The position numbers were made by a program, and so were the translations under genes. Below, piece after piece: positions 3,143-21,497 of a DNA stretch of 21,497 bases. The notes below the pieces were generated by a model. That model searched no databases. It was given only the letters and a program-made list of their open reading frames with translations, and had not been told where the DNA came from. How positions within the stretch are numbered: position 1 is the stretch's first letter; each line of letters starts with the position of its first letter. Location: positions 1-21,497 of the forward strand of contig CAZQAE010000078.1 in assembly GCA_964591275.1 (NCBI GenBank), read 5' to 3'. This DNA comes from an uncultured bacterium. GTDB taxonomy: Bacteria > Lernaellota > Lernaellaia > JACKCT01.

Positions 3143-3164
3143 TTATTGAGAATTGGAGGGTGTC

Positions 3165-7669: not shown

Positions 7670-7772
7670 GGCTGTCTCCTTATGGCGATTTATTCTCGCA
7701 CGGATTTTTTTGCTGCTCATATAACTCAATGAAAAGATGAGTCACCCCTTCTTGAACACAAGAAACAATTTC

Positions 7773-7801: not shown

Positions 7802-7828
7802 GCCTTTTAGAAATATTTGGAGGTTATT

Positions 7829-8395
7829 ATGTCGGTTTATAAACTTCTCGTGCTTTTGACTCTTGCCTTTGTCGCGCTGGCGTGCTGCCTGAATTGCGGC
7901 GACGATGACGACGACAACGATGATGCCTTTTCACCGTATGACGATGATGACGATGTGAACGATGATTCGGATGACGATGACGACGCAGACGATGATATCG
8001 ACGATGATATCGACGACGATGACGTGGACGACGACGTCGATGATGACGACGACGACCAGGACGATCCCTCGTTGGAAAGTTTTGAAAACTCACTGTGCTT
8101 GAATCTGAAAGCAAACGAGCCGCAAAGCATTGACTTCGATTATTCCGACGATGTTCTGACAGTCATCCACCGCAACGGCGTTTTCAACTGCTGCCTGGAT
8201 TATGTCGATGTGGAAATGGTAATTTCAGAAATGACCATCACGCTCAATGAAAACGAATATGCGCCGGAGCCATGCAACTGCGTGTGCCCGACCGACGTCA
8301 CCTCCCGGATTTCAGGATTGGCGGCGGGTAATTACACGATTGACATTTTCGCCAACGGCAATTTAGCGATCAGCGGCGAAACAGTCATTCCCTAG
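7829..8395 (+). CDS. Secreted or lipid-anchored poly-aspartate protein 2: signal peptide, Cys, an Asp tract of about 55 aa, and a Cys-containing beta-rich C-terminal domain
   Basis: The ORF-track ORF is 7817-8395. The ATG at 7829 is preferred because of the GGAGG RBS at 7819-7823. Sequence reads MSVYKLLVLLTLAFVALACCLNCG-DDDDDNDDAFSPYDDDDDVNDDSDDDDDADDDIDDDIDDDDVDDDVDDDDDDQDDP, followed by a 105-aa C-terminal domain. The acidic tract is encoded at 7901-8065. The antisense ORFs 7827-8114 and 7837-8130 are artefacts. Confidence 0.7.
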   Translation: MSVYKLLVLLTLAFVALACCLNCGDDDDDNDDAFSPYDDDDDVNDDSDDDDDADDDIDDDIDDDDVDDDVDDDDDDQDDPSLESFENSLCLNLKANEPQSIDFDYSDDVLTVIHRNGVFNCCLDYVDVEMVISEMTITLNENEYAPEPCNCVCPTDVTSRISGLAAGNYTIDIFANGNLAISGETVIP

Positions 8396-8919: not shown

Positions 8920-10989
8920 ATGGCTGCGGCGACATCAATGTGGAATCCAAAGGAAAAATTATACGCTCCCCTGATGATATTTGGCATCGTGCTGATCCTT
9001 TGCCTGCCGATGTTTCTTAATCCAAAGGGAATCCGCTGCGCCGATGACTACCGCGCCGCCGATTGGCTCAATGACATCGGCCACCACCTCACGCTACGGG
9101 AGGGATTGCGCACCTACGGCGAGTTTCCGCTGCGCACGCATCTTTTCGGCGGCGGCTATCCCATTTTGGGTCACCCATCAGACGCCACGCTTTCACCGGC
9201 CTCCTGGTCCTTTCTCATTTTGCCCATCCATATCGCCCTGAAGTTGAACATCCTCATTCTTTTGTGGATCGGCGCTTTCGGCATTTATCTCCTGGCCAGA
9301 TTTCGACTTTCCTTGAAGCCGATATATGCCTTTTTCTCATCGGCCGCTTTTACCTTTTGCGGCTGGTGGCTTTCTTTCGCCCTCACCGGCTTTTACGTGC
9401 AGTCCTATTATCTCCTGACGCCGATGATCCTATATTTCCTCTTAAAACCAAGAGACTCTCTGCGCTCCGGGCTATACGCGGGATTGGGGCTGCTGCTGAT
9501 TTTCCTACAGGCCGGCAATGGTTTTTTAGCCGTTTTGCATTTTCTCATTCTCATAACCTTTTTTCTGGCCGCGCAGGACTCAGACAAAAACCATTCTAGC
9601 TCTCTGGCTCTTGCTTTTGCAGCGATAATCGCCGTATCCGCGGCTATCAGCTATCACGCTAAAATTACATGGATCGGATCCATCATGGTCTGCGTGGGGA
9701 TTGCCTCACTTCCCGTTTTCTGGCGCCCAGCACGCAAGCTGGCTATCGCATGGAAACCTTACCTCATTCGATTATCCATCGCGTGCGCGGTGGTTGTTTT
9801 CGTGGGATGCGCCAAGTGGATTCCCATGACTGACCTGCTCGACAAGGCCCAGTACGCGCACCATGACCTTTTCGCTCAAGGCGACGCATACCAGTTTGGT
9901 CCTGGGGAGCGGACCGACCGCCGCTTTTACTCTTCGCTTCCGGCCTTTCTGGGCCACATCAACAAACCCCTTTCCGCCAGGACGAACTACACTTACGGAT
10001 TTCCTGATGAGGAGGAATACGCGCCGCTCGGCGTGTCATACGGCGTCGCAATAGCCTTTGCCCTGGTCGTCGTTTTCCGATGGACCTCCTACTCGCCCTG
10101 GTTCGCCGCCTGGCTGTTTTATCTTCTCATATGCTTCGGCCCAACGCTGCCCACCGACCCGTACCGATCCCTGATATGGGGACTGCCGGGTTTTTCAAAG
10201 TTTTTTGATCCTTTCAAGTACTTCAATTTTTTCCTCGTTTTGCCCATGACCATCGCTTTCGGGTCCGCGGCGGCTATGGTCGTCAAGAAATTCGGCAAAG
10301 CGAGAATATGGCACGGAATTTTCGCGCTGCTCCTTTGCTGGCCCTTGCTGCAAAGCCTGCCTTTGATGTGGACGCTTTTCGAAAAACCGGACAGCGCACT
10401 AGCGCCGAGGGAATCCTTCCACCAAATTCACCACCTGGAAAAAGCGGAAGATTTGAGACTTGATTACCGGCAGATCCAAGAGAAAAATCTCGGTCTGCTG
10501 CGCAATGAGCGAGGACGCGCCGAAAGCGCCACGGGGTTTAATAATCTCAGGAGGGGCGTAGGCGTCATTGACTGGTATGCCGATCTGTTGCTTCCCGAAA
10601 ACGCCTTGCCAAAACTCTTTGTGCTGCCGGACGGGACGCAGCTTCCCAATCCGAGTTATCTCGGCGAGGCCTGGTGCCTTGACGACGCATGCCGCATCAA
10701 GGATTTTCAAATTACGATGAACACCGTGAAGATTACTTTTGCCGCCAGCAGTGAAACAACGCTCGTCGTCAATCAGAATTACGATCCCGATTTTGTCTCG
10801 GGCTTTGGCAAGCCGCTTGACTATAAGGGTCTATTGTCCATCCAGGTTCCCGGCGAGGGCGATTATGTCGCGGAGTTGAAATACAAACCAACAAAAGTTT
10901 TTGCGGGATTCGCCGTTTCGACAGCATCTCTCATTGTCTGTTTTTTGCTTCTGGCCTTTGCCCGCAAAAAAGAACGAAGCGAAAGCTAA
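8920..10989 (+). CDS. Polytopic integral membrane protein (689 aa), possibly a GT-C/YfhO-like glycosyltransferase
   Basis: At least 12 hydrophobic segments span the first roughly 470 aa. An early loop contains DDYRAADWLNDIGHH...FGGGYPILGHPSD, which faintly resembles the GT-C first-loop D-x-D/HP motifs. A soluble domain of about 180 aa follows, then a final TM helix and KKERSES, an arrangement reminiscent of YfhO. No RBS is evident at 8920 and the ATG at 8938 is an alternative start. The functional call is tentative. Confidence 0.45.
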   Translation: MAAATSMWNPKEKLYAPLMIFGIVLILCLPMFLNPKGIRCADDYRAADWLNDIGHHLTLREGLRTYGEFPLRTHLFGGGYPILGHPSDATLSPASWSFLILPIHIALKLNILILLWIGAFGIYLLARFRLSLKPIYAFFSSAAFTFCGWWLSFALTGFYVQSYYLLTPMILYFLLKPRDSLRSGLYAGLGLLLIFLQAGNGFLAVLHFLILITFFLAAQDSDKNHSSSLALAFAAIIAVSAAISYHAKITWIGSIMVCVGIASLPVFWRPARKLAIAWKPYLIRLSIACAVVVFVGCAKWIPMTDLLDKAQYAHHDLFAQGDAYQFGPGERTDRRFYSSLPAFLGHINKPLSARTNYTYGFPDEEEYAPLGVSYGVAIAFALVVVFRWTSYSPWFAAWLFYLLICFGPTLPTDPYRSLIWGLPGFSKFFDPFKYFNFFLVLPMTIAFGSAAAMVVKKFGKARIWHGIFALLLCWPLLQSLPLMWTLFEKPDSALAPRESFHQIHHLEKAEDLRLDYRQIQEKNLGLLRNERGRAESATGFNNLRRGVGVIDWYADLLLPENALPKLFVLPDGTQLPNPSYLGEAWCLDDACRIKDFQITMNTVKITFAASSETTLVVNQNYDPDFVSGFGKPLDYKGLLSIQVPGEGDYVAELKYKPTKVFAGFAVSTASLIVCFLLLAFARKKERSES

Positions 10990-10999
10990 TGGGAGTTCA

Positions 11000-12115
11000 T
11001 CACAAATTCTCTAGTAGAGCGACACACACCTTTTCGATATCGTCTTCACTGAGAAATTCATGACAGGGCAAACCTATTGCGCATTTATCCCAGCGGCGCG
11101 AGTTGGGAACCTGCTCGTCAGATACGGCACATTGTTTCTTATAATAATCCAGCGAGCTGATCGAACGGGCGGGAACGTTGCACTCTATGCCAGCCTGCCT
11201 CATGGCCGCGATAATCTTTGCTCGCTTCGCGCCCCCCGTCAGAGCTATGAAAAAAGTCTGATGATTCCATATAGTATCTGGCGATGCTTGTGGAAGGAAA
11301 TAAGCGTCGTGGGGACGCAGGCGCTCTCTATACTTAGCGCCGACCCTGACGCGAGCCGCAATGATGCTTTCAATCCGTTCCATTTGCTCAAGACCCACGG
11401 CGCTGGAAATCTCCGGCAGTCGATAGTTCATTCCGGGAAATAACAGGCGTTTGTCGGATACCGAAAAACCGTGCTCGCCATAAGCCCGAACGAATTCCGC
11501 CAGCTTTTCATCATTGGTGAGCACGGCGCCGCCCTCCCCCGTTGTCACGATCTTCCGGGGATGAAAACTCAAGATCGCGGCCAGGCCGGAGCATCCCAGC
11601 GGCTCGCCGTCCGTCATCGTCCCCAGGGCGCAGGCGGAATCCTCCGCCAGAACGGCGTTAATTTCTTTTGCCCATCGCTGAAGGGAGGCAAAATCACAGG
11701 GCAACCCAAATTGATGCACCGCTATGACGAAATCCGGCTTTTTGGTCGCGGCCCAATCCAGTGAATTTTGTGGAATGGAAAAATTATCGTTGTTCACATC
11801 GAGAAAAATCGGCATGGCCCCGAGCACTTCGACCGCACCGGCGGTTGCCGCGAATCCGTAATCGGGTAACGCAACCTTATGTCCCGGTCCGACGCCCAGT
11901 CCCCGCAACATGGCCAAAAGGGCCGATGTTCCCGAGTTTGTCGTCACCGCATAAGAAACCTGGAAATATTCACACAGCGCCCTTTCAAATTTTTCGCGAT
12001 AAACGCCTTGCGTGAGTCGTCCGCTTTGGAGGATGTCGCGAATCGCCGGAAGGCTCGCAACGCTTGAAGAGGGTGACGCCAAACGGATTTTGGGTTCAGG
12101 TTCGGCCATGTTCAC
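11000..12115 (-). CDS. DegT/DnrJ/EryC1/StrS-family PLP-dependent sugar aminotransferase (ArnB-like)
   Basis: Family-typical segments are YAVTTNSGTSALLAMLRGLGVGPGHKVALPDYGFAATAGAVEVLGAMPIFLDV and SFHPRKIVTTGEGGAVLTND, the latter carrying the Lys motif. The start overlaps the upstream epimerase stop by 20 nt. Confidence 0.85.
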   Translation of the reverse strand: MNMAEPEPKIRLASPSSSVASLPAIRDILQSGRLTQGVYREKFERALCEYFQVSYAVTTNSGTSALLAMLRGLGVGPGHKVALPDYGFAATAGAVEVLGAMPIFLDVNNDNFSIPQNSLDWAATKKPDFVIAVHQFGLPCDFASLQRWAKEINAVLAEDSACALGTMTDGEPLGCSGLAAILSFHPRKIVTTGEGGAVLTNDEKLAEFVRAYGEHGFSVSDKRLLFPGMNYRLPEISSAVGLEQMERIESIIAARVRVGAKYRERLRPHDAYFLPQASPDTIWNHQTFFIALTGGAKRAKIIAAMRQAGIECNVPARSISSLDYYKKQCAVSDEQVPNSRRWDKCAIGLPCHEFLSEDDIEKVCVALLENL

Positions 12116-13052
12116 GATACCAGTCCGCCGTTATTTTCAAGCCCGCTTCAAGGTCGATCTTCGCCGAAAAACCCAGAAGCTTTTTGGCTTTGGCGATGTC
12201 GGGTGTCCGCAATAAAATATCCGTGCCGAAATGAGCTTTATGCGTGATCCGGGATTCGCTGTCGGTCGCGACGACGATCAACTCCGCCAGCCGCCGCGCG
12301 GTCACCGCGCCGGTCGCATCGCCAATGTTGATAATCTCATCTCCGACGCCTTCTTGCCTGATCGCAGCCATTGTCGCCGCAATAAAATCATCGACAAAAC
12401 ACCAAGCGCGAACCTGCTCCCCGTCGCCGTAAACCACAATGTCCTCGCCCGCTAGCGCCGCGAGCGTCATATCGCGCACTGCTCCATTTCCCGACTGCCC
12501 CGGTCCGTAGATGTTAAAGGGCCGAAGGCAAACCACCTCCAAGCCCTTTTGCGCGCCCGCCGTCAAGCACAGTTTTTCTCCGGCAATTTTCGACACTGCG
12601 TATGTCCATCGAGGCTCTTTCATATCATCGACGGTCAGCGGCTGATCCTCGTGAGCATTGCCGGCATTTGTCCCGTAAACTTCGCTGGACGAAATGAAAA
12701 TAAGCCGCCGCGTCTTTTCCGTCAGCAACTCGAGGAGATTCATGGCTCCACCGATGTTGACGCGCAACACATCGTATGGCGCTTTATAATAATTCAGCAC
12801 ACCGGCAATCGCCGCCATATGCACGACAATATCGGCGTCGCGCGCAAGCTCCGTCAGCGGCGACCGGCCCAGCACATCGCCCTGGACCAATTCGATCCCG
12901 CTTTGCTTTGCGCGGTTCAGATCGCCGATCGGTTTCCGACGCAGATTGTCCAGCAGGCACACGTCATAGTCCGCGGCAGCCGCCAGCGCGAGGTTCAGGC
13001 CCAAAAAGCCTGCACCGCCCGTAATCAGTATTCTCGATTTTTTCATGGCCAT
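12096..13052 (-). CDS. NAD-dependent epimerase/dehydratase (extended SDR; UDP-sugar 4,6-dehydratase or UDP-glucuronate decarboxylase-like)
   Basis: N-terminal Rossmann motif ILITGGAGFLGLNL and catalytic YAVSKIAGE (Y-x3-K). At 318 aa it is the size of the UXS/ArnA C-terminal domain. Confidence 0.85.
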   Translation of the reverse strand: MAMKKSRILITGGAGFLGLNLALAAAADYDVCLLDNLRRKPIGDLNRAKQSGIELVQGDVLGRSPLTELARDADIVVHMAAIAGVLNYYKAPYDVLRVNIGGAMNLLELLTEKTRRLIFISSSEVYGTNAGNAHEDQPLTVDDMKEPRWTYAVSKIAGEKLCLTAGAQKGLEVVCLRPFNIYGPGQSGNGAVRDMTLAALAGEDIVVYGDGEQVRAWCFVDDFIAATMAAIRQEGVGDEIINIGDATGAVTARRLAELIVVATDSESRITHKAHFGTDILLRTPDIAKAKKLLGFSAKIDLEAGLKITADWYREHGRT

Positions 13053-13147
13053 TTTACTCGTTTACCCTCTGATGGGAGTATTTTCACAAGCCCTGGAAAC
13101 TGTCAACGCGCGAGTCGGCGTACATCCTTGGAAATATCCCTATCCGC

Positions 13148-14566
13148 GTGCTATCTTTCGCGGCGATGAAAAGCACCTCGTCAAACAACGGCCGCCGTTT
13201 CCTCCTCGTTCATCCGGGCGGGCCGCGCCGCGATCTCTTCGACCGCCTGGGACGATCCGACTCGCCGCCCCTGGGCATTCTCTACCTGGCTTCATCTTTG
13301 GAAGCTGCGGGGCATGAGGTCCGCGTTGTCGACTTGAATTTTCCGCGCCATGTAGACAGCATCAAACCTCTTTTGCAAAAATGGAGGCCGCACATCGTCG
13401 GCCTCGGCACACTCGCGCCGTCGTTTCAAGACGTCATGGGCCACGCGCGATCCATACGCAAGCAGTTGCCGAACGACGTTCTCCTCATCGCCGGCGGCCC
13501 AGACGCCACCGCGCGAACCGAATTGTACACGCAGGCGGATATCTTTGACGCCGTGCTTTTCGGCGAAGCGGAAAAGAGCATTGTGCGCCTTGCCGACAGC
13601 TATCCCACTATCCCCCAAGGCGAGGGGATTATTCCCTGCGGCCAAAGCGCCGGGGCCATCCCTGAGCCTTTGGATTCCGATTCCCTGCCTTTCCCCGCCC
13701 GCCATCTGTTGCCCTTGAAAAGATACCGGGGCGGTCCTGCCTACAAGCGGCGTCGATACTCTACAAGCATTTTCACGCACCGTGGCTGCGCCTACAATTG
13801 CTCTTTTTGCGAAAAAAGCGTTCACCACGGAGCGATGCGCTTTCGCTCAGCCGCCAGCATCCATGAAGAAATCCGCCGCATCCGAAGGGATCACGGAATC
13901 CACGACATTCGTTTCGTGGACGACGTGCTGATGATCAGCAAACGCATCCTCGGCGAACTGATCGATCTGATTCGTTATGACGCCGACCCCTTCGACTGGA
14001 TGTGCTGCGGCCGCATCGACCTGATGGATGAAAAAATGCTGGCCGAAATGAAAAAGGCCGGGTGTTACCGTATCGAGATTGGCATCGAAAGCGGCTCGGC
14101 CCGCGTACTGGATTTGGTAAAAAAGGGAACGGCCCCCGGACAGGCCCTGGAGGCCATGCGCAAGGCGCGTGTCGCCGGTATTGAAGTCATCGCCAATTTT
14201 ATCATCGGCTTTCCAACCGAAACCGGAGAGGAAATGGCGCAAACGGTGGACCTGTCGCTCAAAACCGATCCCGACTACGCCGTGTATTTCCTCTTCACTC
14301 CTTTTTCCGACGCACCCATCTCGAAGGATTTCAACCTGGGTTGGGATGACTTCGCGCCGGGATACCGCGCCCCTTCTCCCGATTACCTTGTGCCCTCCGA
14401 CCAAGCGCAGGACATGGTGGACAGCGCCCTGCGTCGTTTTTATTTCCGCCCAGGCTATATCCTCAGGCGCCTTGTCGCCATCCGCAATCCCTGGATTATC
14501 GCCGATCTGGCAGCATGCGCCGGATTATTTTTGTACCGACGGATTAAAAATATCATTTGTTCATGA
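13148..14566 (+). CDS. B12-binding-domain radical SAM enzyme (class B; probable methyltransferase-type)
   Basis: An N-terminal cobalamin-binding Rossmann-like region (FLLVHPG...LGILYLASSLEAAGHEVRVVDLNF...VLLIAGGPDA) precedes a radical SAM core with RGCAYNCSFCE (C-x3-C-x2-C). The start is either the GTG at 13148 (as in the ORF track) or the ATG at 13166. Neither has a clear Shine-Dalgarno sequence. Antisense ORFs 13292-13828 and 13847-14404 are rejected. Confidence 0.8.
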   Translation: MLSFAAMKSTSSNNGRRFLLVHPGGPRRDLFDRLGRSDSPPLGILYLASSLEAAGHEVRVVDLNFPRHVDSIKPLLQKWRPHIVGLGTLAPSFQDVMGHARSIRKQLPNDVLLIAGGPDATARTELYTQADIFDAVLFGEAEKSIVRLADSYPTIPQGEGIIPCGQSAGAIPEPLDSDSLPFPARHLLPLKRYRGGPAYKRRRYSTSIFTHRGCAYNCSFCEKSVHHGAMRFRSAASIHEEIRRIRRDHGIHDIRFVDDVLMISKRILGELIDLIRYDADPFDWMCCGRIDLMDEKMLAEMKKAGCYRIEIGIESGSARVLDLVKKGTAPGQALEAMRKARVAGIEVIANFIIGFPTETGEEMAQTVDLSLKTDPDYAVYFLFTPFSDAPISKDFNLGWDDFAPGYRAPSPDYLVPSDQAQDMVDSALRRFYFRPGYILRRLVAIRNPWIIADLAACAGLFLYRRIKNIICS

Positions 14567-14668
14567 AATTCCAACAGGGCGTCCTGGCCAGAATCTTCGA
14601 TGCTACAAAACAATCCAGTCGCATAAAGAATGAAATCAAAATCGCTTTTTCTTTTTGAGGGTTGTTAG

Positions 14669-15562
14669 GTGCCGTTTCCAGGTGAACTCGCCGCGCTGGG
14701 AACAGCGTGCTGCTGGGTGATCACGGCCATGTCCTTCGAGAGCGCGGGCAAGCGGATCGGATCGCTCGCCGTCAACCTGATACGATTAGTGCTGGCTTTC
14801 TTCTTCCTGGCCACACTCGGAGCACTCACCAGGGGCTTGCCGGCACCGACCGACGCTAGTGCGCATAACTGGTGTTGGCTGTCGATTTCGGGCCTGGTGG
14901 GTTTCACGCTCGGCGATCTCGCACTGTTTAGGGCCTTCGTGCTGATCGGCTCGCGCCGGGCGATCCTGATGATGTCCTTCGTGCCGCCGATGTCGGCGCT
15001 GCTGGGCTGGATTATCCTGGGCGAAGGGCTGAGCGCCGCCGACCTGACCGGTATGGCGCTGACGATCGCAGGCGTGGCGCTGGCGGTGCTGGAACGAAGC
15101 GACAACGCCGATGGCGCTCAAATCAAACCGATGGCGACCGGCATTTTTCTAGCTTTAGCCGGCGCACTGGGGCAGGCCGTAGGGCTAGTGCTGTCCAAGT
15201 ATGGGATGCAGGATTTCAACCCCTTCGCATCGACGCAGATACGGGTCATCGCGGGGGCCGTCGGTTTCGCGGTGATCTTTTCGTTTATCGGCTGGTGGCC
15301 CAAAGTCATTTCGGCGCTGAGGGACACGCCTGCAATGAAACGAGTCGCGCTGGGCGCGTTTTTCGGCCCCTTCCTGGGTGTCTCCCTCTCGCTGCTGGCT
15401 TTGCAGCATATCAAAACCGGGGTCGCCGCTACGCTCATGGCCACCACGCCCGTGCTGATCCTGGCGCCGGCGGCCATCGTGTTCAAAGACAGAGTCACTC
15501 CCAGGGCAATCCTGGGTACGCTGCTGGCGGTTATCGGGGTTTCCGTTCTGGTCTTGTCGTGA
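14669..15562 (+). CDS. EamA/DMT-superfamily transporter (10 predicted TM segments)
   Basis: GTG start with GAGGG 7 nt upstream. Two EamA-like halves are visible (TACCWVITAMSFESAGKRIG...; PMSALLGWIILGEGLSAADLTGMALTIAGVALAV; ...GVAATLMATTPVLILAPAAIVFKDRVTPRAILGTLLAVIGVSVLV). It is noticeably more GC-rich than its neighbours. Confidence 0.8.
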   Translation: MPFPGELAALGTACCWVITAMSFESAGKRIGSLAVNLIRLVLAFFFLATLGALTRGLPAPTDASAHNWCWLSISGLVGFTLGDLALFRAFVLIGSRRAILMMSFVPPMSALLGWIILGEGLSAADLTGMALTIAGVALAVLERSDNADGAQIKPMATGIFLALAGALGQAVGLVLSKYGMQDFNPFASTQIRVIAGAVGFAVIFSFIGWWPKVISALRDTPAMKRVALGAFFGPFLGVSLSLLALQHIKTGVAATLMATTPVLILAPAAIVFKDRVTPRAILGTLLAVIGVSVLVLS

Positions 15563-15593
15563 CCGCGAAAGTGTTAAGCCTGGCTTCTTTTTT

Positions 15594-16496
15594 TCATTCG
15601 TAATAGCGCGGCTCGACCTTCCTGCGCCCTGCGGTGCGTTGATATTTTTCTTTGGATTTCCCAATAACAATCACCGCGTAAATCTTTTCTCCTTTTTCGA
15701 GACCAAGGTTTTTTCTAATTCCCTTGTCGTTCTTGATCGCTTCAACAGCAAACCCGATCAGACAGGTTCCCAGACCAGCCGCGTGGGCGGCCAGTAAAAT
15801 ATTTTGCGTCGCCAGCAACGCATCTTCGCAAGGAGTAGCGCTTCCTGTTTTAGCTCCTACTAAAATAGCCGCCGGGGCTTGATGAAACAGCATATCTTTT
15901 CCATCAACATCATAGTCATGCAACGCCTGCTCAACAAATTCATAATAGTCGCGATAATATTTGCCAAGCACGTCCTTCGCAAACAACCGCGATAGGAATC
16001 GAACCGACCTTTTCGATGCAAGGTTGTTGAGTTTGCGGAAGAAACCCGAAATTTTAGATCCCAGTTTTTCCACCGCCTGCGCAGTCGGCAAAATGGTAAA
16101 AGTCCATTGTTGCGTGTTGGAACCGGAGGGGGCAGTCATTCCCGCTTTCACCAGATCCTTGAGTAAATCACGCTCGACCGATTCGTCGGAAAATTTTCTG
16201 CATGAACGCCGCGAACTCATGAGATTTACGAGCGACGCGGCGTCAAACTTACCCGGTTTTAACCAAGTTTTGTCCACATTGAGGGTTTCAAATTTCAAGC
16301 CATCCGCATCAATAAAGGAAATGTCTATAGCCTTTTGGGGACATGACGCCGCGCAATGCCCGCAACCGATGCATAGCGTGGAATCGCCGACCGCTAATTC
16401 ATCGGCCATCGACATAATCTCCCTGGGGCAGACCGGAATACACAATCCACATCCGTTGCACAGGTCCCGGTCGATCTTTATTTTTATTGGTTCCAA
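15594..16496 (-). CDS. 2x[4Fe-4S] ferredoxin-domain / nitroreductase-family fusion protein
   Basis: The N-terminus carries CNGCGLCIPVCP and CIGCGHCAASCP (two CxxCxxCxxxCP clusters). The C-terminal roughly 200 aa is nitroreductase-like (RRSCRKFSDESVERDLLKDLVKAGMTAPSGSNTQQWTF...). The start is an apparent TTG at 16496, because the first Fe-S motif begins at residue 13 and no in-frame ATG lies upstream. Confidence 0.8.
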   Translation of the reverse strand: MEPIKIKIDRDLCNGCGLCIPVCPREIMSMADELAVGDSTLCIGCGHCAASCPQKAIDISFIDADGLKFETLNVDKTWLKPGKFDAASLVNLMSSRRSCRKFSDESVERDLLKDLVKAGMTAPSGSNTQQWTFTILPTAQAVEKLGSKISGFFRKLNNLASKRSVRFLSRLFAKDVLGKYYRDYYEFVEQALHDYDVDGKDMLFHQAPAAILVGAKTGSATPCEDALLATQNILLAAHAAGLGTCLIGFAVEAIKNDKGIRKNLGLEKGEKIYAVIVIGKSKEKYQRTAGRRKVEPRYYE

Positions 16497-16743
16497 AGTC
16501 TTTCCATCCTCATTTTCAAAGTAATTTCAAAAAATCATGGGTTTCTAGCGTGAAACACTACCATAAAAATGAATGCTGCAAAAAAATGGGGGAAACGAGA
16601 TGTTTTTTCAAAACTCGCCAGTTCCATCCCAAAACTGCGATGGGACTCCTTTGGTTCCCCGACCCAGAGTGAGCAATTTTTTGTGAGGTCAAGGGAATAA
16701 GCGCTGCTCTTTCGGCATTGGGATAGCTGCCTATGGACTGTCG

Positions 16744-17802
16744 CTACAGCTTGATATTTGGATGTTTGTCGTAAGGCATCGGTAATACATCCGCGCCATG
16801 CAATGGATCGGCGTATGTCTTAATAAATTCCTTGTCCTCCGACGCATGGCACATGCCCTTCCCTTTTTGCAGGGCGTCCCAATTCGACATGCGGTGGTGG
16901 ATGGACTCAATCGAATCCGTTTTCACATTTCCAAAAGATATCTGGATGAAGGGACACGGCGTCACATCCCCGTAGCAGGTTACGTAAATTTCCGTTGTCC
17001 CGCAGGGGCAGCGAAAATCCTCGCTTCCCAGGTTTCCGTGGAGAAACACATCCGAATCCTCGGCCAACTCATCGAGAATCTTTCGATGCCGCGCCTCCAG
17101 TAACACTTCACGGTTGGCGCTCCATCCACCGGCGGAAGACGGGAAAACCAATCCCAACGTCGCATCGTGCTCCTTGGCCAATTTCAAAACCCTGCCCACG
17201 TTCCCCGCCTCCACCTGGCTGACCGTGGTTGTGAAGCACAAATGTCCACGAACGCCGGGAGTTTCGCGAATGACTTTAAGCGCAGCGAAAACTTTTTCGT
17301 AGAGTCCGGGGATGCCACGCAGTTCGTCATGCTCTTTTGGGACCGGCGAATCGAGGCTGATCTTGAAAAGGTCCGCGCCGGCCTTGCGTAGCGACATGAT
17401 GCGCTCGGAATCGAGCAAGGCCCCGTTCGTATTGATGCCGATAAATGTTTGACGCGGGTGAAAAAAGCTAATGATCTTCTCAAGATTCTTATCGATGAGC
17501 GGCTCGCCGCCGGTGAAATTGACTTCATAAACGCCCATGCGATAGCAGTCATCGCCCAGGCGGCGCAGTTCAACGCTATCCAAACGGCTTCGTGAATTGT
17601 CGATCATTTTCAGCGATGAACATTTCGCACAAGCCGCCTGACAGTCGTACAAAACAGCGTATTCGAGAGCGCTCACCATCGGGTGGCCCCGCACTTTCGA
17701 CAGCGCCAGATTGCGCAGCCCGTTCACGGCAAACAGGGGCTTTTTGACAAGGAACATTCCGAATTTTGGAATGCGCCTGAGTATGTCGATAGGTCGTTTC
17801 AT
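16744..17802 (-). CDS. Radical SAM enzyme with a C-terminal Cys-rich SPASM/twitch-like extension
   Basis: ATG at 17802 with GAGAGAGG about 8 nt upstream. The motifs are YDCQAACAKCS (C-x3-C-x2-C), FTGGEPL, and a C-terminal cluster CPCGTTEIYVTCYGDVTPCP...C. This is typical of rSAM peptide or cofactor maturases, but no substrate gene was identified. Confidence 0.8.
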   Translation of the reverse strand: MKRPIDILRRIPKFGMFLVKKPLFAVNGLRNLALSKVRGHPMVSALEYAVLYDCQAACAKCSSLKMIDNSRSRLDSVELRRLGDDCYRMGVYEVNFTGGEPLIDKNLEKIISFFHPRQTFIGINTNGALLDSERIMSLRKAGADLFKISLDSPVPKEHDELRGIPGLYEKVFAALKVIRETPGVRGHLCFTTTVSQVEAGNVGRVLKLAKEHDATLGLVFPSSAGGWSANREVLLEARHRKILDELAEDSDVFLHGNLGSEDFRCPCGTTEIYVTCYGDVTPCPFIQISFGNVKTDSIESIHHRMSNWDALQKGKGMCHASEDKEFIKTYADPLHGADVLPMPYDKHPNIKL

Positions 17803-17990
17803 GCTTGCCTCTCTCGTGCGACGATAACATTGCCGCGAGACATGAACAAGCTATCAGGCAATAGAGGGTGAGTGAACACCCTGTGAAACGATTTCGCAGA
17901 GTTAAAGGATGTTGCAAAAGGATCACAGCCGAGGACGGCTGTGCCGATGTTTCACGCGTTCCTTCATTCCCGCTGCCATGGCCCACCTTC

Positions 17991-18070: not shown

Positions 18071-20323
18071 ATGGATTTCATTTCTGTAAAAATTCCGGCG
18101 CGGTCATTAAACCACTTGTCGCTTCTTAGAAACGCTCGAACCTATTTTTGCTGCTTTATGGCGCTTTTCTGCCTTGGCTTATATCTGGCGGCGACTTCTC
18201 CGCTAATTTATTGGCGCGATTCCGTCGAGTTCGCCATGATCGGCCACAACCTGGACATCGGGCATCCGGCCGGCAGTCCGGTCTTTTCCATGTTCACCAA
18301 ATTCCTTGATTTACTGCCCATCGGCTCCATCGCTTTTCGGGCAACATTATTTTCCATGCTCAGTGCGTTTTTCGCCATATCAGCCCTGGTTTTTACACTT
18401 TTCAGACTGGCTGAATCCTTTAGACATACTGGTTGGAGATTGTGTTTCGGCGCTCTTGTCGCTGTCTGCGCTTTCGCCTTTTCTCCAGCTTTTTTCGATT
18501 GGGCCATTGCGCCCGAAGTGTACGCCGCGCAAGTTCTGGTCGTTTTCCTCCTTATTGCAATGTCGATTGAGTTATTCATCCAGGAGCGTCACGGCGGAGC
18601 CGACAGGCGACTTCTCTTTCTCGCCGGTTTGATTCTGGGATTGGGATGCGGCGTGCACATGGGGACGGGGCTGCTCGCGCCGGGGCTAGCCTGGGTTCTC
18701 ATCATGCCGAATCGATCCCTGCGGCGATTACGAAGCATTTCCCTTTTCGGCCTTTTTGTTTTCATCGGCTTTAGCGTTTACATCTATCTGCCGATCCGGG
18801 CCGCAACGCAGCCGACATTCAACCAGGGCAATCCGCAAACGTGGGGTTTGTTCCTGGGGCACATCACCGGCAGTCGCTATTCGGAAATCATCCACAGCTT
18901 CCCGTGGCCGCGCATCCTGCTCAATCTCCGCGCCCTGGCCGCGCATTTCCCCGACCAGCTCACATGGCCCACGCTGCCTCTGGCTGTCTTCGGCTTAATG
19001 TTTTGCGCCAGGCGAAGTCCGCATTTTCTCATCGGTATCTGTCTATTCGTTTTTGGACATCTCTACCTGTACGTGAAGGATTGGGAAAGAGCCTTCGGCT
19101 ATATCCCGCTATTCGCCCTGGCCGCTGTGCTGACGGGCGTCGGCGCTGTCGCCGCCTCTCATTTCCTTTCGGGCAAAAAGCGATATTTCAGCCCCTGGAT
19201 AGGAATTTCCGCGTGCCTGATCTTTGCATTCATGCTTTTTGTTCACCAGGCTCAGAGAGCTATCCTTGAACGTTCCCACAGCGCGCACGACCTGACACAT
19301 CGCCACGCACGCGGCCTCCTCAATTCATTGCCACACGATGCGCTTTACGTCAGTCATCAGGACGCCAACAGTTATACGATCTTCTACGCGCAATCCGTCG
19401 AACGATATCGGGAGGATGTGGTCCACATCCAACGTGCTTTTCTCCCGCTGCCGGATTATCTGCGTGAACGTTATTCATCCATCGACTGGAGCGGTTACGA
19501 TCCGCAAAAAAGGTTCGGCGTTTACGACTTCTTGGTCGACCAAAGCAAAGTGCAAGAAGCATTCTGGGACTATGGGTGGGAAATGCGCGCCGATGTTCCA
19601 GTCGATGGCCTGGCAACGCACGGTTTCATCTGGCGGATCGCCCAAGACAATTCTTTCAAACCTGATCCGGATCGACGGAGATTAAAGAAATATTTCGGGC
19701 AGGTCATCGCGGAGATGGATTTTCATCCTTACGACTTCACCGTCCGCGAAGTCTATGCCAGGCGCTTTTCGCTATTGGCCAAATATATGTATGACCATCG
19801 CGAGTATGAGCAGGCGGAAAGCGCCATCAACCGGGCGCTTGAAATCCGCCCCCAATACGGCCAGTTATACGCGCAGCTCGGCATCATTGAGGCTGCCAGG
19901 GGAATGCTCGATCAGGCATGGCTAAACGGCGTCCTGGCCACGCAACTCGAACCCGGCCATATCGACAATTGGAACTACCGCGCGCAGTTTGCGATTCGGG
20001 ATAAGAAACCAGACGACGCCCTGTTTGCTTACGAAAAATCACTGGCGCTCAACCGCTGGCAAAGCGGCCCCGCGTTGGGTCTCGCGGAATTTTTGGTGAA
20101 TAAAAAACAATATGCCAAGGCCGCATCGCGAGCCAAAGACGCCCTCGACTGCGCGAAAAACGAACGCGACGAGCATCGAGCCAATAACGTTTTTGCGCGG
20201 GCGCTTGTCGGCCTGGGCCAATGCGCTGACGCCCTCCCGATTATCACAAAACTTAAGGAAATGAATCCTGGCGACGAGACGACGCAAGGGATGCTTGATT
20301 TTTGCCGGGGACAATTGAAATAG
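18071..20323 (+). CDS. DUF2723 (TMEM260-like) GT-C-fold membrane glycosyltransferase with a C-terminal TPR domain
   Basis: The first-loop motif YWRDSVEFAMIGHNLDIGHPAGSPVF matches the DUF2723 signature as I recall it (D-[SG]-x-E-F......G-[IV]-x-H-P-x-G-x-P). About 11 TM segments span residues 1-390. The C-terminal roughly 200 aa is TPR-like (YEQAESAINRALEIRPQYGQLYAQLGIIEA...). The stop at 20321-20323 overlaps or abuts the GT2 gene. Confidence 0.75.
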   Translation: MDFISVKIPARSLNHLSLLRNARTYFCCFMALFCLGLYLAATSPLIYWRDSVEFAMIGHNLDIGHPAGSPVFSMFTKFLDLLPIGSIAFRATLFSMLSAFFAISALVFTLFRLAESFRHTGWRLCFGALVAVCAFAFSPAFFDWAIAPEVYAAQVLVVFLLIAMSIELFIQERHGGADRRLLFLAGLILGLGCGVHMGTGLLAPGLAWVLIMPNRSLRRLRSISLFGLFVFIGFSVYIYLPIRAATQPTFNQGNPQTWGLFLGHITGSRYSEIIHSFPWPRILLNLRALAAHFPDQLTWPTLPLAVFGLMFCARRSPHFLIGICLFVFGHLYLYVKDWERAFGYIPLFALAAVLTGVGAVAASHFLSGKKRYFSPWIGISACLIFAFMLFVHQAQRAILERSHSAHDLTHRHARGLLNSLPHDALYVSHQDANSYTIFYAQSVERYREDVVHIQRAFLPLPDYLRERYSSIDWSGYDPQKRFGVYDFLVDQSKVQEAFWDYGWEMRADVPVDGLATHGFIWRIAQDNSFKPDPDRRRLKKYFGQVIAEMDFHPYDFTVREVYARRFSLLAKYMYDHREYEQAESAINRALEIRPQYGQLYAQLGIIEAARGMLDQAWLNGVLATQLEPGHIDNWNYRAQFAIRDKKPDDALFAYEKSLALNRWQSGPALGLAEFLVNKKQYAKAASRAKDALDCAKNERDEHRANNVFARALVGLGQCADALPIITKLKEMNPGDETTQGMLDFCRGQLK

Positions 20324-21111
20324 ATTTATGGGAGCATTTGAACTTGACCAACGACTCTAAGAAAATTTTATCGACATATGACCTGTCCATCGTCATTCCC
20401 GTTTACAACGAGAGCTGGCGAATCGATGAGGGCCTGCGTGCAATCATGAAGTATCTGAATGCGCGGACGGACAAATGCCAGATCGTTGTCGTGGATGACG
20501 GCAGCGGCGACGACACCGTGGAAAAGGCGCGAAAAATTTTAAAGGCATTTCCTGATCACCTGGTCATTGAGTCCGAAATCAATCGTGGCAAGGGACACGC
20601 CGTAAAAATCGGCATGCTAGCCGCCGGAGGCGCCGTCCGGCTTTTCACGGACATCGACCTGTCCGTGCCCATTGAAACAGCCGATCATTTCGCCCGGCTT
20701 ATTTTCGACGGCGCTGATATCGTCATCGGAACGCGCAAGGTCAAGGGCAGCGACGTGCGTGTCCATCAACCTTGGTGGCGAGAGATGCCCGGCGGAGTAT
20801 TCCGCTGGATGTCAAAATGCCTTTGCGCGCCGACCATCACGGATTTCACCTGTGGCTTCAAAGCCTTTTCCGCTCCAGCCACGCGCGCCATCTTCGAGCA
20901 AAGCGTCATCGACCGTTGGTCATTCGACGCAGAGATTCTTTTCCTCGCCTACCAACTGCGCCTGCTCATCGTGCAGATCCCCGTCGTATGGGTTAACTCG
21001 GAGGACAGCCGCGTGAGCATCGGCATAGACATGATCCGAAGCTTCCTGGAACTGATGATCATTCCCATCATGGGAGTGCGCGGACAGTATAAATTGAGGT
21101 CTGGAATTTAG
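20302..21111 (+). CDS. GT2-family polyprenyl-phosphate sugar transferase (Dpm1/ArnC/GtrB-like)
   Basis: LSIVIPVYNE, QIVVVDDGSGDDT, TDIDLSVP (DxD-type) and TDFTCGFKAF are hallmarks of Dpm1-like GT2 enzymes. The ORF track gives a TTG at 20302, which overlaps the upstream gene by 22 nt. The true start may instead be the TTG at 20338 or 20344, downstream of the GGAG at 20330-20333. There is no in-frame ATG before the catalytic motifs. Confidence 0.8.
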   Translation: MPGTIEIDLWEHLNLTNDSKKILSTYDLSIVIPVYNESWRIDEGLRAIMKYLNARTDKCQIVVVDDGSGDDTVEKARKILKAFPDHLVIESEINRGKGHAVKIGMLAAGGAVRLFTDIDLSVPIETADHFARLIFDGADIVIGTRKVKGSDVRVHQPWWREMPGGVFRWMSKCLCAPTITDFTCGFKAFSAPATRAIFEQSVIDRWSFDAEILFLAYQLRLLIVQIPVVWVNSEDSRVSIGIDMIRSFLELMIIPIMGVRGQYKLRSGI

Positions 21112-21149: not shown

Positions 21150-21189
21150 CGCGATTGTATCGCTCGGATCGGATTTGAGCGCTTTTTTG
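21150..21189 (+). terminator. Possible rho-independent terminator after the GT2 gene
   Basis: CGCTC (21160-21164), an 11-nt loop, GAGCG (21176-21180), then CTTTTTTGA (21181-21189). The stem is only 5 bp and an alternative stem GCGAT-tgt-ATCGC overlaps it. Confidence 0.35.
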
Positions 21190-21497
21190 ATCAGCTCCTT
21201 CGTCTTTTGATATTACATTAACCGTGATTCCCCATTTCAAATTTTGAAACCGTCCTTGATTTGTAGAATAGAACCTGTCCGTGCTTCCGATCGCCGATCT
21301 GTTTTGAGGCAACGTCGCGTTGGCATTGATGCCTTTGAAAGAAAGGCGAATCGAATTCCCCGGAGGGATTCGCTCCCACTTGATATGCGACCCATTTGTA
21401 AGACAACTGCGGAATTATTAGGACACGGCCTTGCCGTGCCTAGTGTTTGGCCTTTCCCTAGACATTCTCCATGATTTTCATTTAACCGAAAAATAAT

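What the first reader, a model, noticed from the sequence alone, without database searches (positions are those of the whole stretch)
18071..21111. DUF2723 (TMEM260-like) GT-C enzyme with TPR tail, translationally coupled to a Dpm1-like polyprenyl-phosphate sugar synthase
Seen in sequence: the 750-aa membrane protein carries DSVEF…GHPAGSP in its first loop and about 11 TM helices, followed by a TPR domain. The GT2 gene (LSIVIPVYNE / VDDGSGDD / DIDLS / CGFKAF) overlaps or abuts it. Established knowledge: Dpm1/ArnC/GtrB-type GT2s make polyprenyl-P-sugars that GT-C enzymes (PMT, ArnT, YfhO, TMEM260) transfer to substrates on the far side of the membrane. Human TMEM260 has been reported as a protein O-mannosyltransferase. 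Bacterial DUF2723 proteins have no assigned substrate. Inference: this pair is a self-contained donor-plus-transferase unit. The TPR tail would fit recognition of a protein substrate, possibly the secreted poly-Asp proteins or the LysM and SPFH envelope proteins.
Basis: partly seen in the sequence, partly recalled or inferred. Interest (0 to 1): 0.65.

Follow-up and report, generated by a model that had tools for sequence, protein, structure and literature searches.

The report
Bacterial TMEM260-like glycosyltransferase with donor synthase
A two-gene operon encodes a bacterial relative of the human protein O-mannosyltransferase TMEM260 and the enzyme that probably makes its lipid-linked sugar donor, and related operons in other bacteria sit right behind type IV pilin genes, which points to pilin glycosylation.

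Summary
ORF 18071-20323 is a full-length TMEM260-family GT-C enzyme. It scores 87 bits on PF11028 and E = 7e-18 against the solved human TMEM260 structure. The model shows 11 TM helices, a Rossmann-like domain and a TPR domain. D50, H65, Y270 and D431 align to the essential human residues D52, H67, Y267 and D441.

The downstream GT2 (best start TTG 20344) has no TM helix. Its closest sequence and fold matches are the polyprenyl-phosphate sugar synthases DPMS, ArnC and GtrB. The two genes do not overlap: a 20-nt spacer carries a GGGAG ribosome-binding site, and a terminator-like hairpin follows the GT2.

Unexpectedly, 25 related loci have a type IV pilin gene within 380 nt upstream of the GT-C. 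Four sister-clade loci have one 2.5-5.7 kb upstream. This resembles P. aeruginosa pilA-tfpW.

Best reading: a donor-plus-transferase module for periplasmic protein O-glycosylation, with pilins the leading candidate acceptor. The window itself has no pilin gene. I found no report of the bacterial pairing or the pilin link in the searched literature.

The parts
18071..20323 (+). TMEM260-family (PF11028, ex-DUF2723) GT-C glycosyltransferase gene, 750 aa as the longest ORF. The database gene model starts at 18158 (M30).
18098..19273 (+). Transmembrane GT-C core, residues about 10-401, with 11 predicted TM helices. The N-terminus is cytoplasmic by the positive-inside rule.
18218..18280 (+). First periplasmic loop motif D50-S-V-E53-F...G-H65-P-A-G-S-P70. 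It corresponds to the sugar-recognition motif of TMEM260 (D52, E55, H67).
   Evidence: Alignments. D50, E53 and H65 are invariant in 21 homologues. D52 and H67 are essential in the human enzyme.
18869..18880 (+). G267-S-R269-Y270 in the loop after TM7. Y270 aligns to TMEM260 Y267. R269 lies near the position of R264.
   Evidence: residue roles.
19283..19735 (+). Periplasmic alpha/beta (Rossmann-like) domain, residues about 405-555. It contains D431 (nt 19361-19363), which aligns to the TMEM260 catalytic base D441 within the shared PHDA...D motif.
   Evidence: AF2 secondary structure; alignments; D431 invariant in clade A; role of D441.
19736..20317 (+). C-terminal TPR domain, residues about 556-749, with 11 helices.
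   Evidence: Pfam TPR_19, TPR_14 and others; AF2; TPR structures in the fold searches.
20330..20334 (+). GGGAG Shine-Dalgarno-like site, 9 nt before TTG 20344, inside the 20-nt spacer after the GT-C stop (TAG 20321-20323).
   Evidence: Sequence read. The start position follows from the database protein P0057 and the called gene in L031.
20344..21111 (+). GT2 gene, 255 aa (the longest ORF runs from TTG 20302). It is a Dpm1/ALG5/PpgS-like putative polyprenyl-phosphate hexose synthase without a TM helix. The DxD motif is D103-I-D105 (nt 20650-20658).
21161..21191 (+). Terminator-like hairpin (9-bp stem) followed by a T-run, 50 nt after the GT2 stop. It is the likely end of the two-gene operon.
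   Evidence: a consensus scan only; 10 sites found against 5.2 expected in the region.

Best explanation
The two genes form an operon that encodes a donor-plus-transferase module for glycosylating a protein on the periplasmic side of the inner membrane.

Step 1 (inferred from homology). The TM-less GT2 sits on the cytoplasmic face of the membrane. It transfers a hexose from a nucleotide sugar to a polyprenyl phosphate, giving beta-linked polyprenyl-P-hexose.

Step 2 (inferred; no gene assigned). The lipid-linked sugar is flipped to the periplasmic face by a flippase encoded elsewhere.

Step 3 (inferred from conserved catalytic residues and architecture). The TMEM260-type GT-C binds the donor in its transmembrane core through D50, H65 and Y270. 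Its TPR domain holds an extended acceptor peptide. The Rossmann-like domain presents D431 as the base, so the sugar is transferred with inversion onto a Ser or Thr.

Likely acceptor. A type IV pilin or pilin-like protein encoded elsewhere in the genome is the most likely acceptor, because sister clades and the wider subfamily place this GT-C directly behind a pilin gene.

What is shown: family membership, conserved residues, fold, conserved gene pairing and pilin adjacency in relatives. What is not shown: the sugar identity, the acceptor and the enzymatic activity.
For: GT-C identity:
- PF11028 at 87.2 bits.
- phmmer E = 7e-18 to human TMEM260 structure 9rql over residues 38-465.
- AF2 model (pLDDT 88.7) with 11 TM helices, an alpha/beta domain and a TPR domain. 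This is the same domain order as the cryo-EM structure.

Catalytic residues: D50, E53, H65, Y270 and D431 align to D52, E55, H67, Y267 and D441. D52, H67, Y267 and D441 are essential in the human enzyme, and its TPR domain is sufficient to bind the acceptor peptide.

GT2 identity:
- The best PDB sequence hit is P. furiosus DPMS (2.5e-14). An uncharacterised family-2 glycosyltransferase follows, then GtrB and ArnC.
- AF2 pLDDT is 92.
- The top 16 Foldseek hits are all ArnC, DPMS or GtrB, with TMq 0.60-0.75 (0.68-0.75 for 14 of the 16).
- NCBIfam partial hits include dolichyl-P hexose transferase, PgfS, PpgS and ArnC.

Pairing:
- The GT2 orthologue (340-378 bits on the subfamily HMM, 50-82% identity) starts 11-61 nt after the GT-C in all 16 independently retrieved orthologous loci.
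- The GT-C itself is only 31-67% identical across these loci, and the flanking genes differ.
- More distant TMEM260-like TPR proteins are followed by a different AglJ/DPMS-like GT2.

Pilin link:
- Loci were selected only by GT-C motifs. In 25 of them a type IV pilin ORF (GFTLIELMIVVAIIGILAAIAIPNF...) ends within 380 nt upstream on the same strand.
- In four sister-clade loci a pilin gene lies 2.5-5.7 kb upstream. In three of these (L006, L009, L026) a homologous ORF, identified as YfhO-like in L006, lies between it and the GT-C.
- Only about 5 of 34 pilin-motif hits in 502 kb lie elsewhere.

Precedent: P. aeruginosa TfpW is a GT-C with 11 TM helices and a C-terminal TPR domain. It is encoded just downstream of pilA and O-glycosylates pilin from a polyprenyl-P sugar.
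Against: - No pilin gene occurs in the window. None occurs near the pair in the window's own clade either (window, L001-L004, L038). Loss of linkage could mean a changed acceptor.
- No flippase gene is conserved in the cassette.
- The GT2 lacks the TM helices of GtrB, ArnC and archaeal DPMS, so membrane association is only inferred.
- The fold-search margin between polyprenyl-P synthases (E about 1e-14 to 1e-12) and soluble GT2s (about 1e-11) is modest.
- R264 and R355 of TMEM260 have no clean equivalents in the alignment.
- The sugar is unknown. Source labels of 'dolichyl-phosphate beta-glucosyltransferase' are automated.
- No bacterial family member has been characterised in the literature I could search.
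Confidence: 0.55

Rival explanations
1. Same donor-plus-transferase logic, but the acceptor is not a protein. The GT-C would decorate a lipid or glycan (lipid A or LPS core, O-antigen, peptidoglycan-linked polymer or exopolysaccharide), as ArnT, GtrC-type and YfhO-type GT-C enzymes do. The TPR domain would then dock to other envelope machinery.
For: - Most characterised bacterial GT2 plus GT-C 'three-component' systems modify glycoconjugates (literature found).
- No acceptor gene is conserved next to the pair in the window's clade.
- Clade-A loci carry a convergent GT4-GT2-GT2-TPR-DUF2723 cluster that looks like glycan biosynthesis.
Against: - Direct sequence homology is to TMEM260, a protein-specific enzyme. 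It includes the luminal Rossmann-like domain with the D441-equivalent base and a TPR domain that binds peptide in the human enzyme.
- Sister clades and the wider subfamily sit directly behind pilin genes.
Confidence: 0.2
2. The module glycosylates proteins encoded nearby in this window: the secreted poly-Asp lipoproteins (3153-3809, 7817-8395), the LysM protein (32-1297) or the SPFH protein (6869-7729).
For: These are envelope or secreted proteins within 10-18 kb of the pair. The poly-Asp proteins carry lipoprotein-like signal peptides and would be in the correct compartment.
Against: None of these genes is found near the pair in any of the other orthologous loci, including the 67%-identical one (tblastn; gene lists). 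They lie on other transcription units, separated from the pair by radical-SAM, transporter and sugar-nucleotide genes. Poly-Asp tracts contain almost no Ser or Thr.
Confidence: 0.07
3. The GT2 is not the donor synthase. It would be an ordinary cytoplasmic GT2 acting on a soluble or lipid-PP-linked acceptor, and it merely shares an operon with the GT-C. The GT-C would then use a housekeeping polyprenyl-P-sugar.
For: The GT2 has no TM helix. All NCBIfam hits are far below their cut-offs. Soluble GT2s (WrtF, GpgS, RmlT) also match the fold at E about 1e-11 to 1e-10. GT2 homologues at 45-46% identity occur in Myxococcota and Chloroflexia without an adjacent TMEM260-like gene.
Against: The best sequence hit is DPMS, and ArnC and GtrB also rank near the top. 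The top 16 fold hits are all ArnC, DPMS or GtrB, with alignments covering 232-249 of 255 residues in 13 of them and at least 232 columns in all 16. Adjacency is strict across loci where every other neighbour has changed. A second, unrelated lineage of TMEM260-like genes has recruited a different DPMS/AglJ-like GT2 at the same position.
Confidence: 0.08

Closest known systems
Human TMEM260 (protein O-mannosyltransferase for IPT domains; PDB 9rql/9rqm/9rqn)
   Same: - Direct sequence homology over the whole TM core and into the luminal domain (E = 7e-18).
- Same domain order: 11 TM helices, Rossmann-like domain, TPR domain.
- Equivalents of D52, E55, H67, Y267 and D441 are conserved.
- PF11028 hit well above the cut-off.
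   Different: - Bacterial inner membrane rather than ER.
- The donor lipid would be a bacterial polyprenyl phosphate, not dolichyl phosphate.
- The sugar is unknown.
- R264 and R355 are not cleanly conserved.
- The acceptors cannot be plexin, MET or RON IPT domains.
- The gene is paired with its own GT2, which the human gene is not.
P. aeruginosa TfpW (group IV pilin D-arabinofuranosyltransferase)
   Same: GT-C enzyme with a cytoplasmic N-terminus, 11 TM helices and a periplasmic C-terminal TPR domain. It has an acidic motif in the first periplasmic loop and uses a polyprenyl-P-linked sugar. Its gene lies immediately downstream of pilA. This is the arrangement seen in 25 relatives of the window's GT-C.
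   Different: - TfpW uses polyprenyl-P-D-Araf made by a DPPR synthase/DprE1/DprE2 pathway, not by a Dpm1-like GT2.
- It has a DDX motif and polymerises arabinan.
- Sequence relatedness to the window protein could not be tested, because no TfpW sequence was available to the tools.
- The window's gene is not next to a pilin gene.
Polyprenyl-phosphate glycosyltransferases of family GT2 (P. furiosus DPMS, GtrB, ArnC; also PpgS, AglJ, ALG5/DPM1)
   Same: GT-A fold with a DxD motif. DPMS is the best PDB sequence match, and ArnC, DPMS and GtrB are the best fold matches. The role as supplier of a lipid-linked monosaccharide to a GT-C enzyme fits the conserved pairing.
   Different: No TM helices, whereas GtrB and ArnC have two and PfDPMS has four. 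In this it resembles TM-less forms such as eukaryotic DPM1 or mycobacterial PpgS (from general knowledge, not tested). Nucleotide-sugar specificity is unknown.
Bacterial three-component periplasmic glycosylation systems (GtrA/GtrB/GtrC, ArnC/ArnEF/ArnT, CsbB/GtcA/YfhO)
   Same: A GT2 lipid-sugar synthase combined with a GT-C transferase that acts outside the cytoplasm (concept from papers found).
   Different: No GtrA-type or ArnE/F-type flippase gene is conserved in the cassette. The GT-C is of TMEM260 type with Rossmann-like and TPR domains. The predicted acceptor is a protein rather than a glycan.
PMT (GT39) and TMTC1-4 (GT105) protein O-mannosyltransferases
   Different: A different Pfam family (PMT_2 or PMT, against PF11028). 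PMTs use MIR domains rather than TPR. Identity in the structural alignment is only about 10%.

Membership tests
TMEM260-like family (Pfam PF11028, formerly DUF2723) | Scores above the curated gathering threshold of the family HMM | tested here: met
   87.2 bits against a cut-off of 24.2; E = 1.5e-24; residues 50-214 cover profile positions 1-174 of 179.
TMEM260-like family (Pfam PF11028, formerly DUF2723) | Sequence homology to human TMEM260 across the whole transmembrane core | tested here: met
   phmmer E = 7.1e-18; query residues 38-465 against chain residues 40-475 of 9rql_A.
TMEM260-like family (Pfam PF11028, formerly DUF2723) | Sugar-recognition motif residues D52 and H67 (essential in the human enzyme) | tested here: met
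   D50 and H65 align to them and are invariant in 21 homologues.
TMEM260-like family (Pfam PF11028, formerly DUF2723) | Donor-loop residues R264 and Y267, and R355 in TMH10 | tested here: inconclusive
   Y270 aligns to Y267. R264 aligns to G267, although R269 is adjacent (the consensus in relatives is GRxY). R355 falls in a gapped, unalignable stretch.
TMEM260-like family (Pfam PF11028, formerly DUF2723) | Catalytic base D441 in a luminal Rossmann-like domain | tested here: met
   D431 aligns to D441 inside the shared PHDA(L/I)...D motif. It is invariant in the window's clade. It is absent from the more distant, immediately pilA-adjacent subfamily.
TMEM260-like family (Pfam PF11028, formerly DUF2723) | Architecture: 11 TM helices, then a Rossmann-like domain, then a TPR domain on the non-cytoplasmic side | tested here: met
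   AF2 model (pLDDT 88.7) has TM helices to about residue 401, a beta/alpha domain at 405-555 and TPR helices at 556-749. The basic N-terminus and the odd number of TM helices place the tail in the periplasm. The human architecture is described.
TMEM260-like family (Pfam PF11028, formerly DUF2723) | Transfers mannose from polyprenyl-P-mannose to protein Ser/Thr | not testable with these tools
   Needs biochemistry or glycoproteomics.
GT-C fold glycosyltransferases | Structural similarity of the TM core to solved GT-C enzymes | tested here: met
Polyprenyl-phosphate glycosyltransferases (GT2; DPMS/GtrB/ArnC type) | GT-A catalytic domain with a DxD motif, closest to known polyprenyl-P sugar synthases | tested here: met
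   PF00535 at E = 4.8e-21. D103 and D105 are invariant. PfDPMS is the top PDB sequence hit (2.5e-14), with GtrB and ArnC close behind. The top 16 Foldseek hits are ArnC, DPMS or GtrB.
Polyprenyl-phosphate glycosyltransferases (GT2; DPMS/GtrB/ArnC type) | C-terminal transmembrane helices anchoring the enzyme (2 in GtrB and ArnC, 4 in PfDPMS) | tested here: not met
   No segment has TM-like hydropathy outside the beta-sheet core. The protein ends after one hydrophobic helix (226-245). It would have to be a monotopic, TM-less variant.
Polyprenyl-phosphate glycosyltransferases (GT2; DPMS/GtrB/ArnC type) | Forms polyprenyl-P-sugar from NDP-sugar and polyprenyl phosphate | not testable with these tools
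   Needs an enzyme assay.
Three-component periplasmic glycosylation system | A dedicated small flippase (GtrA-type or ArnE/F-type) encoded with the GT2 and the GT-C | tested here: not met
   No such gene occurs in the conserved cassette in any locus. The EamA gene at 14669-15562 is not conserved near the pair.
TfpW-type pilin glycosyltransferase | GT-C with 11 TM helices and a periplasmic C-terminal TPR domain | tested here: met
   compared with the description of TfpW.
TfpW-type pilin glycosyltransferase | Gene immediately downstream of the major pilin gene | tested here: not met
   The window and its clade have no pilin-motif ORF nearby. The feature is met in 25 related loci and loosely met in 4 sister-clade loci.
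TfpW-type pilin glycosyltransferase | Sequence homology to TfpW | not testable with these tools
   No TfpW sequence could be obtained. Kus et al. 2008 is not held, and no collection that might hold a Pseudomonas TfpW gene could still be searched.

The most novel reading that the evidence does not exclude
Bacterial TMEM260 homologues paired with a dedicated polyprenyl-P-sugar GT2 would form a widespread, so far undescribed type IV pilin O-glycosylation system with the gene order pilA, GT-C, GT2. It would be found in Nitrospirota, Thermodesulfobacteriota, Lernaella-like and other lineages. It would work like TfpW but with the catalytic machinery of the human disease enzyme TMEM260. The window's clade would be a branch that has become unlinked from pilA and may have been retargeted.
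Probability: 0.4. Interest if true: 0.7.

Novelty: new variant of a known kind. Interest (0 to 1): 0.55.

Why it matters
TMEM260 is a recently recognised human O-mannosyltransferase, and its loss causes a severe heart and kidney syndrome. Its bacterial relatives number about 3,700 clusters at E <= 1e-10. I found no experimentally characterised bacterial member in the searchable literature.

Three findings give a concrete, cheap experiment: co-express a pilA-GT-C-GT2 cassette and read the pilin mass.
- These bacterial enzymes keep the human catalytic residues.
- They are hard-wired to their own lipid-sugar synthase.
- In many lineages they sit directly behind a pilin gene.

That experiment would assign a function to a large family of unknown bacterial proteins. 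It would add a third kind of pilin glycosylation machinery beside the TfpO/PglL and TfpW types. It could also provide a tractable bacterial model for the mechanism and evolutionary origin of the human enzyme.

For this particular window the gain is smaller. It holds one unlinked member of that family, and its acceptor remains open.

Tried and rejected
- The afdb50 library was unavailable.
- A metagenome scan with the single protein found nothing. It worked with a clade alignment.
- A sigma-54 promoter upstream of the GT-C, suspected by eye, had the wrong spacing. The pattern TGGCNCNNNNNTYGC has no match in the window.
- Synteny of the window's other genes with the pair was tested by tblastn and rejected. 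This covered the radical-SAM/SPASM, nitroreductase-ferredoxin, EamA, B12-radical-SAM, SDR and DegT genes and the 689-aa membrane protein. None is near the pair in the orthologous loci. The Arn-like reading (DegT + SDR + EamA + GT2 + GT-C as one amino-sugar pathway) is therefore not supported as a conserved unit.
- hhalign of the 689-aa membrane protein against the TMEM260-like alignment gave only 5% probability. The protein has no PDB sequence hit.
- TfpW homology could not be tested. Kus et al. 2008 is not held and no TfpW sequence was reachable.
- GT2 homologues at 45-46% identity in Myxococcota and Chloroflexia are not next to a TMEM260-like gene. The pairing is therefore a property of the 50%-or-more subclade, not of the whole GT2 family.

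Full report
**1. The observation**

The window has ORFs at 18071-20323 (+, 750 aa) and 20302-21111 (+, 269 aa as the longest ORF). The first has WRDSVEF at residues 48-54 and GHPAGSP at 64-70. The second has LSIVIPVYNE, VDDGSGDD, DIDLS and CGFKAF.

Pfam assigns the first protein to PF11028 'TMEM260-like' (formerly DUF2723) at 87.2 bits against a cut-off of 24.2, with several TPR families over residues 565-740. It assigns the second to PF00535 Glycos_transf_2.

Two details need correcting.
- The database gene model for the GT2 (P0057, 255 aa, 100% identical) starts at TTG 20344, not 20302. A GGGAG lies at 20330-20334. The genes are therefore separated by 20 nt and do not overlap.
- The database model for the GT-C (P0001, 721 aa) starts at M30. 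That start would remove the basic N-terminus and part of TM1, so the longer start is at least as plausible.

A terminator-like hairpin with a T-run lies 50 nt after the GT2 stop. This fits a two-gene operon.

**2. The membrane enzyme**

A phmmer search of PDB sequences finds human TMEM260 (9rql) at E = 7e-18. The alignment runs from residue 38 to residue 465, so it covers the whole transmembrane core and extends into the luminal domain.

A 2026 preprint on the TMEM260 cryo-EM structure describes the same layout: TM 24-415, Rossmann-like domain 416-564 and TPR 565-706. It reports that D52, H67, R264, Y267 and D441 are required for activity. D441, in the Rossmann-like domain, acts as the catalytic base, and the TPR domain is sufficient to bind the acceptor peptide.

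I rebuilt residues 40-475 of the human chain from the phmmer output and aligned them with the bacterial sequences. D50, E53, H65, Y270 and D431 of the window protein align to D52, E55, H67, Y267 and D441. R264 aligns to G267 with R269 adjacent. R355 lies in an unalignable stretch.

The protein is therefore a full-length TMEM260 homologue, not merely a match to a DUF. An earlier paper established D52 as essential and named DUF2723 as the model that led to TMEM260.

**3. The GT2**

- *Sequence.* The best PDB match is Pyrococcus DPMS (2.5e-14). An uncharacterised family-2 glycosyltransferase (6yv7) follows, then GtrB and ArnC. Soluble GT2s come later.
- *Fold.* The AF2 model has pLDDT 92. Its top 16 Foldseek hits are all ArnC, DPMS or GtrB, at E about 1e-14 to 1e-12 and TMq 0.60-0.75. 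Thirteen of the 16 alignments cover 232-249 of the 255 residues. Soluble enzymes (WrtF, GpgS, RmlT) follow at about 1e-11 to 1e-10.
- *Family models.* NCBIfam gives only sub-threshold hits, but these are enriched for lipid-phosphate sugar synthases: dolichyl-P hexose transferase, PgfS, PpgS and ArnC.
- *Membrane anchoring.* The protein has no TM helix and ends in one hydrophobic helix. It would be a monotopic form, unlike GtrB, ArnC and archaeal DPMS.

The GT2 family is large, with 1,459 proteins at E <= 1e-10. Many carry the automated label 'dolichyl-phosphate beta-glucosyltransferase'. That label is a lead on the sugar, not evidence.

**4. Are the two genes a unit?**

I fetched loci from one genome per species using only a GT-C peptide pattern, and later from metagenomes. 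I then searched them with tblastn and with HMMs built from the two alignments.

In every orthologous locus that has downstream DNA, the orthologous GT2 starts directly after the GT-C on the same strand. These loci are the window, L001-L007, L009, L026, L042, L044 and L046, plus L036-L038 found through the proteins. The GT2 scores 340-378 bits and is 50-82% identical. The called intergenic gaps are 11-61 nt. The total is 16 of 16 independently retrieved loci.

The GT-C is only 31-67% identical across these loci. No other window gene has a homologue near the pair, with the partial exception of a DUF4388-TPR gene in two loci. The 67%-identical locus has entirely different flanks. This is strong evidence for a functional pair.

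GT2 homologues at 45-46% identity in Myxococcota and Chloroflexia lack the GT-C neighbour. The link is therefore specific to this subclade.

A more distant group of TMEM260-like TPR proteins (22-28% identical; Nitrospirota, Manganitrophus, Thermodesulfobacteriota) is usually followed by a different GT2 of about 311 aa. Its best matches are AglJ, PpgS and DPMS. Two lineages have thus placed a lipid-sugar-synthase-like GT2 in the same position. Several loci add a second PpgS/AglJ-like GT2.

**5. The unexpected neighbour**

Gene lists for Lernaella-like loci showed a 116-aa N_methyl (prepilin) protein just upstream of the GT-C, with a sigma-54 response regulator before it. I then scanned all fetched loci for the class III signal motif.

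- A type IV pilin ORF was found in 25 loci. It has the form GFTLIELMIVVAIIGILAAIAIPNF..., is 112-151 aa after the cleavage-site Gly, and mostly has 12-20% Ser plus Thr.
- In those 25 loci it ends within 380 nt upstream of the GT-C on the same strand.
- In four sister-clade loci a pilin gene lies 2.5-5.7 kb upstream. In L006, L009 and L026 a homologous ORF (803 aa, YfhO-like by Pfam in L006) lies between it and the GT-C.
- Only about five of the 34 motif hits in 502 kb lie anywhere else.

The loci were chosen by GT-C motifs alone, so this adjacency is an independent observation. It was replicated in the metagenome set.

A neighbour-joining tree puts the window in a clade (window, L001-L004, L038) that has no adjacent pilin. 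Its sister clade is mostly pilin-linked, and the outgroup subfamily is almost always pilin-adjacent. Linkage to pilA therefore looks ancestral and appears to have been lost in the window's clade.

The immediately pilA-adjacent subfamily has TDRKD in place of GRxY and lacks the D441 equivalent. The sister-clade members that are pilin-linked keep both.

**6. Comparison with what is known**

- *TfpW.* The closest functional precedent is P. aeruginosa TfpW. It is a GT-C with a cytoplasmic N-terminus, 11 TM helices and a periplasmic C-terminal TPR domain. It is encoded immediately downstream of pilA and O-glycosylates pilin Ser/Thr with D-arabinofuranose from a polyprenyl-P donor. I could not test whether TfpW belongs to PF11028, because no sequence was available and the 2008 paper is not held.
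- *Three-component systems.* The general logic matches the bacterial 'three-component' systems of GT2, flippase and GT-C. No flippase is conserved in this cassette.
- *Literature searches.* These returned one paper for 'DUF2723' (the human TMEM260 paper). They returned none combining 'pilin' with 'TMEM260'. Only the TfpW preprint combined pilin glycosylation, GT-C and TPR. Within that library the bacterial pairing and the pilin link are not described. The library is incomplete.
- *Family size.* An exhaustive search with residues 1-470 found 8,142 clusters at E <= 1e-3, 3,678 at E <= 1e-10 and 53 at E <= 1e-30. The family is large and the window's close subfamily is small.

**7. Verdict**

The pair is best read as a donor-plus-transferase module for periplasmic protein O-glycosylation.
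- The GT2 makes a polyprenyl-P-hexose on the cytoplasmic face.
- An unlinked flippase exposes the lipid-linked sugar on the periplasmic face.
- The TMEM260-type GT-C transfers the sugar to Ser/Thr of an extended peptide held by its TPR and Rossmann-like domains.

Family membership, catalytic-residue conservation, fold, gene pairing and pilin adjacency in relatives are shown. Activity, sugar identity and acceptor are inferred. A type IV pilin is the leading candidate acceptor. For this window that rests on relatives only, since neither the window nor its clade has an adjacent pilin gene.

The main rival is a non-protein acceptor.

I rate this a new variant of known kinds (TMEM260/PMT-type protein O-glycosylation, TfpW-type pilin modification, GT2 plus GT-C systems). 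Interest is moderate to good because it makes a large uncharacterised bacterial family, homologous to a human disease enzyme, directly testable.

Noticed in passing
window 8920-10989 (+): A 689-aa polytopic membrane protein with no Pfam, NCBIfam or PDB sequence hit. Only 16 homologues were found in 5.8 billion proteins; none has a Pfam domain, and the three that carry an organism label come from uncultured MAGs, one of them Candidatus Lernaella stagnicola. It is convergent with a DegT aminotransferase (11000-12115) and an SDR epimerase/dehydratase (12096-13052). It shows weak but colinear similarity to the YfhO-like protein that lies between pilA and the TMEM260-like gene in L006 (C-terminal segment E = 2e-5). 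It may therefore be a very divergent YfhO-type GT-C. In Lernaella its homologue sits beside a DUF2079 membrane protein and 3-5 kb from DegT, acetyltransferase and SDR genes.
   Followed up: partly
window 3153-3809 (+) and 7817-8395 (+): Two lipoprotein-like ORFs (signal peptide plus Cys) whose N-terminal halves are almost pure Asp-rich linkers of the form DDDD-x-DD..., about 60-70 residues long, followed by a small globular domain. No family hit was found.
   Followed up: no
window 13148-17802: A block comprising a B12-binding radical-SAM enzyme (13148-14566), an EamA transporter (14669-15562), a ferredoxin-nitroreductase fusion (15594-16496, minus strand) and a radical-SAM/SPASM enzyme (16744-17802, minus strand, divergent from the GT-C). 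It is not conserved next to the GT-C/GT2 pair in other genomes, and its function is unassigned.
   Followed up: partly
window 3925-5763 (-); L009 13477-14640; L026 10992-12155; L027 about 12150-12850: A DUF4388 (PATAN-like) plus TPR protein. It is the only other window gene with homologues near TMEM260-like genes elsewhere, about 3 kb downstream of the pair in L009 and L026.
   Followed up: no
L036 9639-10463; L037 9637-10455; L038 4703-5917: An FGE-sulfatase-domain protein lies directly after GT2b (L036, L037) or directly before the GT-C (L038). This is a recurrent extra neighbour of the cassette whose role is unknown.
   Followed up: no
L003 about 11100-17900; L004 about 10900-17900; L038 9174-14268 (also partly L002): In the window's own clade, a convergent second cluster follows the pair. 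It encodes a GT4, two AglJ/PpgS-like GT2s, a TPR protein and a second, distant TMEM260-like paralogue. It looks like a larger glycosylation island that the window's contig may simply not reach, since the contig ends about 470 nt after the GT2.
   Followed up: partly
L011, L012, L018, L021, L023, L048 (about 1.3-2.8 kb upstream of the GT-C): In Nitrospirota and Manganitrophus-type loci a long TPR-repeat protein, and sometimes a second pilin gene, precede the pilA-GT-C-GT2 set.
   Followed up: no
L020 5754-10043; L017 8022-12423; L053; L054: Tandem duplicates of the TMEM260-like GT-C lie behind a single pilin gene in some loci.
   Followed up: no
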